Assembly: GCA_025497365.1 (NCBI GenBank)
Contig: GCA_025497365.1_4955.1
DNA length: 57,325 nucleotides
Strand: one strand, 5' to 3'
From: a phage
Shown piece after piece: positions 12,001 to 15,000 of this stretch; position 1 is the first letter of the stretch, and every line of letters starts with the position of its first letter. A program made the position numbers.

Positions 12001-15000
12001 AGGTTCAGTACAAGCATTAGGATCTAATGACGCAATACCAAAACCACTACCGTTGCCGTACATACTCACTACTCCTGTTCAGTTGATGGTGAAAGCATAA
12101 CTGCGTATCTGTAATCAGTCAAGAATTATTTTAACACCGTGCAAAAAAACCATCACTGATATAACATACGTTAAGAACCGTAAACCGTATGGAGCCTGTA
12201 GAACATGGCTGATCAACAATTCGAACAACTAGCCGTTGCCGGGTACAGTCGAACAGGCAACCAGGTAAACGACGATTTTCTTCCTAAACTGAATGGTAAA
12301 CAAGGCCGTCGTATTCTTCGTCAGATGGCTGAGAACGACGAAACGATCGGTGGTGTACTGTTTGCTATGAGTAGCGTTTATCGTTCTGTACAGTGGATTT
12401 TTGACCCGTCTGACAAAGATGATCCAGAAGCTATCCGTTATTCAGAATGGTTACAGGATGCTATTGAAAATAAAATGGGTGATCCGCGTGGTGCACTCCC
12501 GGATGATACCTGGTCCGCGTTCGTTCAGACATGGACAGACGTTGATGTATTCGGCTGGGGTTGGTATGACATCTGGGTCAAAGATCTTGATGACGGTACA
12601 GTGGGTATTGCCCGTCTGGTTCCTGTAGCACCTGAAACGCTTGCTGGCTGGGATATTGAAGAACCGACAGGTTATGTTCGTGGTATTTATCAATGTTCAC
12701 CTAATCAGGGTACAACGACGTTAATCACACGTGACCGTTCGCTTCATTTGATTTCAAGTCCGAATAAAGGTAACCCGGAAGGTTTATCACTGCTGCGCAC
12801 AGCTTATCGCCCGTGGTACTACAAAAAAGTGAATATGGAAATCGAATCCATACTTGCCGAACGTGGTACAGGGTTCCCGGTAATTACTGTCAACGCAGAT
12901 ATTAAGAAAGCGGCTAATGATCCTAATGTTCCTGAACAACAGCGTCAGGCAGCACAGGCGATGATTGATGACTATGAAAACATCGTCGCTAATATCAAAC
13001 GCAATGAACAATCAGGACTGGTGATTTATTCTAAACCGTATATCACGGGTTATGATAACGAAACAGGTGTTACTACGTACGGTGGTGAACAACAGGTGAA
13101 ACTGGAATTCGTTACACCTAACCAGACCATTTCTGTGGATATTGACCGGACGATTAAACGCCTGGATACCAGTATTGCCCGTGCGTTACTGGCTGATTTT
13201 TTATTTTTTGGCAGTTCGGGTAATACAAGTAATGGTGCTAACCTGGGTAATCGTACTGAACTGTGGATCCGCGCAATGCAATCACGTATTGACAGCATTG
13301 TAGAATGTGTTAATCGTCAGTTGATACCGCAGTTATGGTCATTAAACGCATTTCCTGATGAATACCGCCCGTCGATTCGCGCCGGGTCGATCAGTAAAGA
13401 CAGTATCGAGACGTTGACCACTGCACTTGCACGACTTGCACAAGCTGGTGCGCCTGTATTCCCGGATCCAGACCTTCAGGAATACGTGTATAAAGAGGCT
13501 GGTCTACCTATTACGGGGATTGATAAAGCCGGGGACGGATTACCGTCTATTGACGACTGAATGAAAAAGGGACCGTTACTGGTCCCTTAATTTTACTTAG
13601 TTTCAGGCTGCACGATTGACAGTAACTTACTCGCTTCATCAACCGCAGTCTGAATACGAGTCTGTAACGGATAACTGTTGTTGATCGCACGTTCCAGCGT
13701 TTTATCAAGCAGTTGCAGTTTGACTTCATCATCGCCAGTGAACGCGTACATGTCAGCGACAACTTCCTTAAACTGTGATGCTTGCTCAACAATAGTCGTG
13801 GTTACAATGTATTTCCAGACTTTGTTAAGTAGTTTAAATTTCACTTCGTTGTCAGCAACTGCATCAACCAGAATTTCAGCAGCAGTCTTGTCATATTTAA
13901 CAAGCTCAAGAATTTCAAAACGCATTTAAGTCTTCTCCTGTCAGTTAACATACTTCGCGATCAGTTTATCACAATCCTCGCGACAGGTAGCATACTTAAA
14001 CAGGTCACTGGCTGCTTCTGCGCGGTAGTCAGTATCAATGGTGTAATGTTCATTAACATAATTATAGGCTGCAAGGTAATTGCTGAACATCCCCGTGGTT
14101 ACCACTTTCGGTTGTTCCCTTACGACCTTACCGTTAAACAGATGTGCGATTAGCAGAATCAGACCACCGATCACAGGACTTGTGAGAAATGCGATAAAGA
14201 ACCATACACCAGGGTTACGACCTGTTTGTTTGGCAACACCCGCGACAACCAGAGAGAAAAGAATATATAAAATAGTGAATAACATGATTGTGTCCTCCTT
14301 TGTTTTGATGTTTGTAGGTTACACGTCCTTGTGTAATCCGTCAAGAATTATTTTAAATTATCGTAGACAGGCGGTAAGCCCATTGCGGCCTGAACAGACC
14401 GTTTTTCGTATTCCTCCCGCAGTTTCTGAAGCTGTTCAATACCGATGTCACAACCACGCATAATATCAGCGCACAGGTCGTTGTAGGTCGCTTCAGATTG
14501 CTTGCAGTGTGGGTAATCAACACAGGATGGATCTGCAATAATGACTTTCGGTAGATACGCGACAGTATCGCCCATTGCGTTTTTAAATATCGTCATAAAT
14601 ACGATCCCACAATTGCAGCACAGTTGACGATCGCTAAACGCGTTGCTTTTTCACGGTCTTCTCCGTGGCTAACTGGTTGCTTATAACTAACGCCAGTGTC
14701 AGGGTTATTAACCGTCACTTCGTTGTCACGAACATCCAGATCCATGTACATGTTAACCATCAGACTGAAAGCATCCTCATTACGTGTAAGAGGGTTCCAC
14801 AGGCGACCATTACCTATATCAATACCTTCGTTTATGTAACGTTCGTCGTACGCGACGTAATATTTACCCTGGATTTCAGCAGCCCGTGCTGCGTTGACTA
14901 ATAAATCACGATTGTTCATCATACCCGTCCTGTTGATCCAAACCCGCCATTACGCTGACTATCAACATCTGGTAATTCTTCCACTTCAACCAGGTTAACA

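What the first reader, a model, noticed from the sequence alone, without database searches (positions are those of the whole stretch)
14294..14357. 64-bp promoter plus leader duplicated upstream of two different membrane-protein genes
The 64 bp at 14294-14357 and 28733-28796 differ at a single position and include the promoter-like element, the spacer and the GGAGG ribosome-binding site, yet the downstream genes (13941-14285 and 28545-28724) encode unrelated small membrane proteins. This implies recent duplication or recombination of a regulatory cassette rather than of a gene.
Basis: seen in the sequence. Interest (0 to 1): 0.5.

Follow-up and report, generated by a model that had tools for sequence, protein, structure and literature searches.

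The report
Duplicated phage promoter-leader expression module
The two near-identical 64-bp stretches are copies of a standard promoter plus ribosome-binding-site module that this 9NA-like E. coli phage uses about 15 times, and a short recombination patch made these two copies almost identical; this is a tidy but ordinary case of a phage recycling regulatory DNA.

Summary
14294-14357 and 28733-28796 match at 63 of 64 positions; the mismatch is 14328 C / 28767 T.

On the minus strand each copy reads: A/T-rich block, TTGACG, 17 nt, TAACCT, a 22-nt unstructured CA-rich leader ending in GGAGG, 8 nt, ATG.

The family is conserved in 9NA-like phages of E. coli, Salmonella and Klebsiella. The -35-to-ATG distance is 59-64 nt in 11 of 15 copies.

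Only copies A and B also share the spacer, -10, 5'UTR and Shine-Dalgarno sequence.
- A drives a 114-aa membrane protein restricted to this phage group.
- B drives a foreign Imm superinfection-immunity gene plus a T5orf172 endonuclease, in a ~1.17-kb accessory cassette between the tail chaperone and tape-measure genes.

The pair is old: five relatives carry both copies, differing at 4-9 of 64 positions. In this window three clustered diagnostic bases of B have switched to the A state, which is the signature of a 13-34-nt gene conversion. The same module precedes a third unrelated gene in phage PDP46, and it is absent upstream of the A-gene orthologues in Sasha and 9NA.

The closest analogue is the PeSL regulatory cassette of T4-like phages. 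Promoter function is inferred, not measured. Interest is modest.

The parts
14294..14357 (-). Copy A of the promoter-leader module. A/T-rich UP-like block 14357-14345, which contains the TAA stop (14350-14348) of the upstream 82-aa ORF. -35 TTGACG 14344-14339; 17-nt spacer 14338-14322; -10 TAACCT 14321-14316; leader 14315-14299; GGAGG 14298-14294. An 8-nt gap follows, then ATG at 14285.
   Evidence: family consensus places TA...T at this spacing
28733..28796 (-). Copy B of the module. UP-like block 28796-28784; -35 TTGACG 28783-28778; spacer 28777-28761; -10 TAACCT 28760-28755; GGAGG 28737-28733. An 8-nt gap follows, then ATG at 28724.
28738..28750 (-). Minimal gene-conversion tract in copy B. 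The three diagnostic positions 28750, 28747 and 28738 carry the A-type bases, whereas five relatives have T, A, C. The maximal tract is 28733-28766, bounded by the retained B-type spacer base at 28767 and the B-specific GTTACAAA after the SD.
13941..14285 (-). 114-aa predicted two-TM membrane protein driven by copy A. Function unknown (phrog_27401). Homologues occur only in 9NA-like phages. It is 68% identical to Sasha gp19.
13593..13925 (-). 110-aa DUF2560 protein, the second gene of transcription unit A.
13567..13588 (.). Bidirectional terminator-like hairpin that closes unit A and the convergent portal gene.
   Evidence: annotated as a terminator in AVIO78A
28545..28724 (-). 59-aa Imm_superinfect (PF14373) protein driven by copy B.
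27632..28543 (-). 303-aa endonuclease with three DUF723 repeats and a T5orf172 domain. It starts 1 nt after the imm stop codon.
27652..28817 (-). Accessory cassette of ~1.17 kb (promoter B, imm, endonuclease) inserted antisense between the tail assembly chaperone and tape-measure genes. It replaces 14 bp of the empty site seen in PDP46 and AVIO78A. The promoter block lies ~20 nt inside the right junction.
27624..27645 (.). Bidirectional terminator-like hairpin at the left edge of the cassette. It is native, being present also in genomes that lack the cassette.
1523..1548 (-). Family member 'C', with a related spacer (gtttacacaaggaattg) but a different -10 and leader. The other family -35 starts are at 3934-, 6086-, 7968+ (variant), 12122-, 15486-, 18455-, 18766+, 26839-, 46980-, 47043-, 51842+ and 54287+.

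Best explanation
Each 64-bp copy is a complete expression module read on the minus strand by host sigma-70 RNA polymerase. It consists of an A/T-rich UP-like block, a near-consensus -35 (TTGACG), a 17-nt spacer, a weak -10 (TAACCT), and a ~22-nt unstructured CA-rich leader ending in a strong GGAGG 8 nt before the ATG. It is one sub-type of a ~15-copy, fixed-geometry promoter family that 9NA-like siphoviruses place in front of most of their transcription units. Copy A is an internal promoter in front of a resident 114-aa membrane-protein gene. Copy B is the same resident-type module placed in front of a horizontally acquired imm gene and a homing-type endonuclease, in an accessory cassette inside the tail operon. 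The two paralogous modules diverged by 4-9 of 64 positions in relatives. In this genome a 13-34-nt non-reciprocal recombination patch (gene conversion, A into B) re-homogenised them. The consequence is that two unrelated small membrane proteins receive essentially identical transcription and ribosome-binding signals. The repeated modules are also preferred crossover points for swapping the genes downstream of them. Shown: the sequence anatomy, family membership, comparative distribution and conversion signature. Inferred: promoter activity, the transcription start, expression timing and the direction of the original copy.
For: Anatomy and family:
- 13 exact copies of AAAATAATTCTTGAC, against about 0 expected.
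- Of the 15 family copies, 14 point at an SD plus start codon (none was found by my filter for 18455-). The -35-to-start distance is 59-64 nt in 11 of the 15.
- The family consensus keeps T1, A2 and T6 of the -10 at 17-nt spacing in the window, 9NA and a Klebsiella phage.
- No RNA polymerase is annotated among the 78 9NA CDSs listed.
- The leader has no significant structure (z 0.17 and -0.44), and Rfam gives no match.

The pair is old:
- A and B are both present in PJ16, Bas82, 536P12 and BDX09P1, differing at 4-9 of 64 positions; in the window they differ at 1.

Conversion:
- Against PJ16, the window's B locus has 2 differences in the 250 nt upstream and exactly 3 in the 72-nt module.
- All 3 lie within 13 nt and all match the window's own A copy. 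My rough chance estimate is about 3e-7.
- A metagenome contig whose flanks are only 75-89% identical also carries the A-type leader at B, which suggests recurrence.

The cassette moves, not the gene:
- PDP46 lacks imm but has the B-type module, including GTTACAAA, before an unrelated 217-aa gene beside TerL. Homology to the window breaks inside the promoter core.
- Sasha has the A-gene orthologue (68% aa) with no module upstream. 9NA has a same-length gene separated from the upstream gene by 1 nt, leaving no room for the module (orthology there is by position only).
- A Klebsiella relative has a family promoter at that junction with a different leader.

imm is foreign: outside four E. coli 9NA-like phages the best hits are at most 58% identical, in other siphovirus groups.

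Breakpoints: 10 of 53 homology-breakpoint clusters against six relatives lie within 70 nt of a family promoter, where 4.5% is expected (P about 1e-4, uniform null).
Against: - There are no transcript or reporter data.
- The -10 matches only 3 of 6 positions, and the simple consensus scan did not call either copy.
- Three relatives and an environmental phage (contigs L012/L017) carry mutated -35 hexamers at locus A: TTGATG, TAGACG and TCGACG. That promoter may therefore be dispensable or selected against.
- The breakpoint test uses a uniform null, although breakpoints favour intergenic DNA generally.
- The imm cassette itself was not inserted by promoter-promoter recombination. The empty site has no promoter, and the junction lies ~20 nt outside the promoter block.
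- The direction of the original duplication (A to B) is inferred from distribution only.
- The conversion donor could have been a co-infecting phage rather than the same genome.
Confidence: 0.8

Rival explanations
1. Recent duplication: one copy of the 64-bp cassette was newly copied to the second locus in this genome or its immediate ancestor.
For: 63/64 identity. The downstream genes are unrelated.
Against: Both loci already carry the module in five relatives, with 4-9 differences. The window's B copy keeps the PJ16-like spacer base (28767) and the B-specific post-SD sequence, so only an internal patch was replaced.
Confidence: 0.05
2. Regulator-binding element. The block conserved beyond sigma-70 needs (AATAATTC before the -35, GATTACA after it), and in the A/B/C subclass the dyad GG(A)TTACAC-N6-GTGTAACC across the spacer and -10, is an operator or activator site for a phage-encoded or host factor. 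On this view, sequence identity is maintained by selection for co-regulation. This is not exclusive of the main explanation.
For: The core is near-invariant across E. coli, Salmonella and Klebsiella phages whose coding DNA is only ~75-82% identical. In the subclass the dyad arms are conserved while the 6-nt centre varies, with 7 variants. The dyad folds at -8.6 kcal/mol, z -2.5.
Against: The 5' arm is simply the family-wide GATTACA, and part of the 3' arm is the -10 itself, so only GTG is independent evidence. The A/G polymorphism in the arm breaks DNA symmetry in several genomes. No candidate regulator was identified. Concerted evolution by gene conversion, demonstrated here, can by itself keep repeats identical.
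Confidence: 0.15
3. PeSL-type composite terminator-promoter. The spacer hairpin attenuates read-through from the upstream operon (the promoter at 15486) while the module re-initiates transcription.
For: The anatomy matches the published PeSL layout: upstream stop codon in the A/T-rich block, -35, stem-loop between -35 and -10, SD, start. The hairpin is predicted in read-through RNA.
Against: The stem has only 8 bp with a bulge, is A/T-rich, and has no following U-run. The terminator scan did not call it. Most other family members lack any such stem.
Confidence: 0.1
4. Assembly artefact or chance similarity.
For: None beyond the general possibility.
Against: The same two loci carry the module in at least six independently sequenced phages and several environmental contigs. 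A 64-nt repeat is shorter than a sequencing read. The flanks are unique.
Confidence: 0.01

Closest known systems
PeSL (promoter-early stem-loop) regulatory cassettes of T4-like myoviruses (Arbiol et al. 2010, PMC2839356; Comeau et al. 2014, PMC4122927)
   Same: A repeated sigma-70-like promoter with an A/T-rich upstream block that contains the stop codon of the upstream gene. An inverted repeat between -35 and -10, then the SD and start codon of a small gene, often of unknown function. The copies mark insertion, deletion and replacement boundaries between close relatives, and the same cassette precedes unrelated genes.
   Different: The host phage is a 9NA-like siphovirus, not a T4-like myovirus. 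There are ~15 copies, not ~50, and they also head structural and replication operons. The stem is short, present only in a subclass, and not terminator-like. No mini-circles have been shown. Here a gene-conversion patch between two copies is directly visible.
Morons of tailed phages (an independent promoter-gene-terminator unit inserted between conserved genes; Hendrix/Juhala concept, from my own knowledge)
   Same: Locus B is an extra transcription unit inserted between two adjacent conserved tail genes. It has its own promoter, ends at a hairpin, and carries a superinfection-immunity gene. Bas82 annotates it as a moron. A Skatevirus phage carries imm in a similar antisense position in its tail operon.
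   Different: This is a virulent phage, so there is no prophage expression. The GC content of the cassette (42.5%) is close to the genome's (43.6%). The promoter is a resident-family module rather than one imported with the gene.
Free-standing homing endonuclease cassettes of phages (for example the T4 seg and mob genes; from my own knowledge)
   Same: A T5orf172/DUF723 endonuclease gene in an intergenic site, with precise presence/absence between close relatives and a strongly diverged flank (the 5' part of the tape-measure gene).
   Different: Cleavage and homing are untested. The endonuclease is the second gene, behind imm, and depends on the shared promoter module.
UP-element-containing sigma-70 promoters (rrnB P1 type; Estrem et al., from my own knowledge)
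   Same: An A/T-rich block at about -48 to -36 adjoining a near-consensus -35, which can compensate for a weak -10.
   Different: The block is conserved as an exact sequence (AAAATAATTC), not merely as A/T-richness. Binding by the alpha-CTD is untested.

Membership tests
Sigma-70 promoter | -35 hexamer close to TTGACA | tested here: met
   TTGACG (5/6) in both copies; TTGACr in the whole family.
Sigma-70 promoter | -10 hexamer close to TATAAT at 16-18 nt spacing | tested here: inconclusive
   TAACCT at 17 nt matches T1, A2 and T6 only (3/6). The total is 8/12, below the scan threshold of 9. The family alignment conserves TA...T at this position.
Sigma-70 promoter | Correct orientation and distance to a gene start | tested here: met
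   Of the 15 family copies, 14 face an SD plus start codon (none found by my filter for 18455-). The -35-to-ATG distance is 59 nt for A and B, and 59-64 nt in 11 of 15 copies.
Sigma-70 promoter | Mapped transcription start or reporter activity | not testable with these tools
   No transcript data are available.
PeSL regulatory cassette | Repeated strong sigma-70-like promoter with an A/T-rich upstream region, followed by SD and start | tested here: met
   compared with the description in PMC2839356.
PeSL regulatory cassette | Stable stem-loop acting as terminator or attenuator | tested here: not met
   An 8-bp bulged A/T-rich stem, -8.6 kcal/mol, with no U-run, present only in the A/B/C subclass. 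The terminator scan did not call it.
PeSL regulatory cassette | Copies coincide with indel or replacement boundaries between close relatives | tested here: met
   10 of 53 breakpoint clusters lie within 70 nt of a copy, against 4.5% expected. At the TerL-adjacent slot, five relatives break within ~50 nt of the -35 at 6086. Caveat: the null is uniform.
PeSL regulatory cassette | Host genome is a T4-like myovirus; mini-circle formation | tested here: not met
   The window is a Nonanavirus/Sashavirus-type siphovirus. Mini-circles are not testable.
Imm_superinfect (PF14373), for the 59-aa product | Pfam score above the gathering threshold | tested here: met
   62.6 bits against a 27.9 cut-off, E 3.1e-17, full-length model. 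PHROG 1039, 'immunity to superinfection'.
Moron | Own promoter and terminator; inserted between genes that are adjacent in relatives | tested here: met
   The empty site in PDP46, AVIO78A and Sasha is compared with the 1.17-kb insert here. The hairpin is at 27624-27645. The promoter is by prediction only.
Free-standing homing endonuclease cassette | Endonuclease domain plus presence/absence polymorphism at a precise intergenic site | tested here: met
   T5orf172 and three DUF723 repeats. Junctions were defined. Absent in 5 relatives.
Free-standing homing endonuclease cassette | Cleavage of the cassette-less allele and homing in mixed infection | not testable with these tools
   Needs an experiment.

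The most novel reading that the evidence does not exclude
9NA-like siphoviruses run a PeSL-like system that has not been described outside T4-like myoviruses. In it, fixed-geometry promoter-leader modules of ~75 bp would (i) be kept uniform by frequent gene conversion among the ~15 copies, (ii) be captured by incoming foreign genes such as imm, and (iii) serve as the crossover points that shuffle accessory genes. The exact conservation of AATAATTC/GATTACA around the -35 might additionally reflect a dedicated phage or host factor.
Probability: 0.3. Interest if true: 0.5.

Novelty: new member of a known kind. Interest (0 to 1): 0.3.

Why it matters
It gives a clean, datable example of concerted evolution of regulatory DNA inside a virus genome: a 13-34-nt conversion patch. 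It also shows a foreign defence-type gene (imm) being expressed from a resident-type promoter-leader.

It extends the 'mobile regulatory cassette' idea from T4-like myoviruses to a siphovirus group that is little studied but now in the BASEL collection (Bas82), so it is experimentally accessible.

Practically, the module is a compact, apparently strong, structure-free expression signal that could be reused in constructs. The list of family promoters is a ready-made transcription map for annotating these phages; AVIO78A has only 7 promoters annotated.

It does not open a new mechanism.

Tried and rejected
- **Rfam, whole window, gathering threshold:** no match, so no known RNA element lies in the leader.
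- **RNA folding of both 5'UTRs with the start of the coding region:** no structure beyond shuffles, so a riboswitch or thermosensor reading is rejected.
- **BLASTP between the two membrane proteins:** nothing. The shared weak hit to phrog_8436 is best read as transmembrane composition.
- **Homologue search for the 114-aa protein:** only 6 clusters, all 9NA-like, with no Pfam domain. Its function stays unknown.
- **Simple sigma-70 and terminator scans:** neither copy was called.
- **Exact-pattern scan of 185,579 bacterial and archaeal genomes for the leader:** no hit, so it is not a host or prophage sequence.
- **Transposon or MITE reading:** at locus A versus Sasha and at the imm cassette junctions, I saw no terminal inverted repeats or target-site duplication by eye. 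Rejected.
- **Promoter-promoter recombination as the origin of the imm cassette insertion:** rejected, because the empty site has no promoter and the junction lies outside the promoter block.
- **Literature:** the 9NA-like genomics paper (Zeng et al. 2019, J Virol, PMC6819911) is not held, so I could not check whether it already lists this promoter family. The literal core sequence occurs in no held paper. The 9NA announcement has no promoter text. The AVIO78A paper only counts consensus promoters.
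Full report
**1. The observation**

The two 64-bp stretches, 14294-14357 and 28733-28796, are identical at 63 of 64 positions. The single difference is 14328 C against 28767 T, and identity ends abruptly on both sides.

Read on the minus strand, each copy is:
TTTAAAATAATTC | TTGACG | GATTACACAA(G/A)GACGTG | TAACCT | ACAAACATCAAAACAAA | GGAGG
followed by 8 nt that differ between the copies, then ATG.

BLASTP finds no similarity between them.

**2. It is one pair within a promoter family**

- AAAATAATTCTTGAC occurs 13 times exactly, and once with one mismatch, on both strands of the window. At up to 3 mismatches there are 17 matches against 3.45 expected (families D2, D4 and D5).
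- The consensus is tTTAAAATAATTC-TTGACr-gATTaCA-(10 nt)-TA...T.
- Of the 15 family copies, 14 face a Shine-Dalgarno sequence and a start codon; my filter found none for 18455-. The distance from the -35 to the start codon is 59-64 nt in 11 of the 15, so the modules have a nearly fixed geometry.
- The window is a 9NA-like (Nonanavirus/Sashavirus) E. coli siphovirus, 97-99% identical over 13500-15500 to PJ16, BDX09P1, AVIO78A, 536P12, PDP46 and Bas82.
- The same core is present about 10-15 times in Salmonella phage 9NA and in Klebsiella phage VLCpiS10a.
- None of the 78 9NA CDSs listed is annotated as an RNA polymerase.

I therefore read the family as the group's standard host-sigma-70 promoter with an UP-like A/T block. 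The UP-element comparison is from my own knowledge. Promoter activity is inferred. The -10 of copies A and B (TAACCT) matches only T1, A2 and T6, and the simple consensus scan did not call them.

**3. What is special about A and B**

Among the family copies, only A and B also share the spacer, the -10, the whole 5'UTR and the GGAGG. Identity of the 38-nt spacer/leader segment to A is 37/38 for B and 8-24/38 for all other copies examined.

The leader is CA-rich and shows no structure beyond shuffled controls (z 0.17 and -0.44). Rfam finds nothing in the window. The SD-to-ATG spacing is 8 nt in both.

The spacer and -10 contain an inverted repeat, GG(A)TTACAC-N6-GTGTAACC (-8.6 kcal/mol as RNA, z -2.5). 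A related spacer occurs in a third promoter at 1535 and in Klebsiella relatives. Its 5' arm is the family-wide GATTACA, and part of its 3' arm is the -10. Its significance is therefore uncertain.

**4. The two transcription units**

*Unit A.* Copy A lies at the end of the dUTPase operon, which is driven from the family promoter at 15486. The stop codon of the upstream 82-aa ORF sits inside the A/T block. Copy A precedes the 114-aa two-TM protein and a DUF2560 protein, and the unit ends at a bidirectional hairpin at 13567-13588. The 114-aa protein has homologues only in 9NA-like phages and no Pfam domain.

*Unit B.* Copy B precedes a 59-aa Imm_superinfect protein (PF14373, E 3e-17) and, 1 nt later, a 303-aa endonuclease with three DUF723 repeats and a T5orf172 domain. 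These sit in a ~1.17-kb cassette (about 27652-28817) inserted antisense between the tail assembly chaperone and tape-measure genes.

- The cassette is present in BDX09P1, Bas82, 536P12 and PJ16, and absent in AVIO78A, PDP46, Sasha, Sergei and Solent.
- It replaces 14 bp of the empty site, and the promoter block lies ~20 nt inside the right junction.
- Outside these four phages the nearest imm genes are at most 58% identical and belong to other siphovirus groups. So the gene looks foreign while its promoter-leader is of the resident family type.

**5. History of the pair**

Where both loci exist in relatives, the modules differ at 4-9 of 64 positions. The B leader is consistently ACAATCAACAAAACAACGGAGG, against ACAAACATCAAAACAAAGGAGG at A. 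That is three diagnostic differences.

In this window, B carries the A state at all three: positions 28750, 28747 and 28738. It still keeps a PJ16-like spacer base (28767) and the B-specific GTTACAAA after the SD. Compared with PJ16, the window's B locus has 2 differences in the 250 nt upstream and exactly these 3 in the 72-nt module.

Three clustered changes that all match the paralogue are the signature of a short gene-conversion patch. The minimum tract is 13 nt and the maximum 34 nt. My rough estimate of the chance probability is about 3e-7.

A metagenome contig (L018), whose flanks are only 75-89% identical to the window, also has an A-type leader at B, together with a TTGATG -35. Such transfers therefore probably recur.

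So the duplication is old, and the near-identity seen here is a recent homogenisation.

**6. The module moves independently of genes**

- PDP46 lacks imm but has the B-type module, including GTTACAAA, in front of an unrelated 217-aa gene next to TerL. Its homology with the window breaks inside the promoter core.
- Sasha has the orthologue of the 114-aa gene (68% identity) directly abutting the upstream gene, with no module. 9NA has a same-length gene 1 nt after the upstream gene, which leaves no room for a module; orthology there is judged by position only. A Klebsiella relative has a family promoter at that junction with a different -10 and leader.
- AVIO78A's promoter 'C' carries the A-type spacer joined to the C-type leader.
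- Across six relatives, 10 of 53 homology-breakpoint clusters fall within 70 nt of a family promoter, against 4.5% expected (binomial P about 1e-4). The caveat is that the null is uniform rather than intergenic.

**7. Comparison with known systems**

The closest described system is the PeSL cassette of T4-like phages. These are repeated sigma-70 early promoters with an A/T-rich block holding the upstream stop codon, a stem-loop near the -35/-10, and an SD and start. They mediate modular shuffling (PMC2839356; PMC4122927).

The layout and the association with mosaic boundaries are the same here. The stable terminator stem and the T4-like host are not. I therefore say it works like a PeSL but do not file it as one.

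Locus B also fits the moron concept and the free-standing homing-endonuclease pattern. Its own insertion was not promoter-mediated.

**8. Limits**

- There are no expression data.
- The key 9NA-like genomics paper is not held, so the promoter family may already be described there. The literal core sequence is in no held paper.
- The original direction of copying (A to B) and the donor of the conversion patch (same genome or a co-infecting phage) are inferences.

**9. Verdict**

The finding is a new member of a known kind, of modest interest.

Noticed in passing
window 14339-14344 and the orthologous sites in L004, L006, L007, L012, L017: At locus A the -35 hexamer is independently mutated in relatives: TTGATG in Bas82 and 536P12, TAGACG in BDX09P1, TCGACG in the environmental contigs L012/L017. 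The rest of the 64 bp is almost invariant, and all other family promoters keep TTGACr. This looks like repeated down-tuning or relaxed need for this internal promoter.
   Followed up: partly
window 11192-11226 and 11891-11925: A perfect 35-nt direct repeat encodes KRLIAAGHTKKR in two small ORFs. PDP46 has a single copy and lacks the 664 bp between them, which is a repeat-mediated indel.
   Followed up: partly
window 28817-30050: The 5' ~1.2 kb of the tape-measure gene, next to the imm-endonuclease cassette, is only ~76% identical or unalignable to cassette-less relatives (AVIO78A, PDP46), but 95-97% identical further downstream. This is as expected for flank co-conversion or target-site divergence around a homing endonuclease.
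   Followed up: no
window 27987-28532: The endonuclease gene contains three ~190-207-nt internal repeats (DUF723 units). PJ16's annotated orthologous ORF is shorter (203 aa against 303 aa) and shows only two DUF723 matches.
   Followed up: partly
window 1440-1505 (-) and L014 near 20014: The leader of the family promoter at 1535 forms a hairpin, CTCACAT-N10-ATGTGAG, whose 3' arm overlaps the GAGG of the SD (-10.7 kcal/mol, z -2.1). This -10/leader sequence is almost unchanged in a Klebsiella relative. It may be a translational control element.
   Followed up: partly
window 27624-27645: A terminator-like hairpin with a T-run on the plus strand sits between the tail assembly chaperone and the tape-measure gene in all relatives, with or without the cassette. 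In cassette carriers, late transcription must additionally cross 1.17 kb of antisense genes and a convergent promoter.
   Followed up: no
window 44200-44445: A tandem array with alternating 18/12-nt spacing (a 30-nt unit, about 8 units) of GGTGCTGCCGCTGGTGTAGGCGCTGCTACA-type repeats. It is presumably a low-complexity coding repeat.
   Followed up: no
window 15457-15508 and 47011-47065: A second promoter sub-family: spacer cattgcaa..., -10 CTAACA, with similar flanks, 76% identical over 55 nt. The pair at 47043/46980 forms tandem promoters 63 nt apart ahead of one gene.
   Followed up: no
L019 (Bas77, Skatevirus) 2675-3598: In an unrelated siphovirus group, the imm homologue also sits in a small antisense gene cluster inside the tail operon, between the major tail protein and tape-measure regions. 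This suggests a recurrent niche for imm morons.
   Followed up: no
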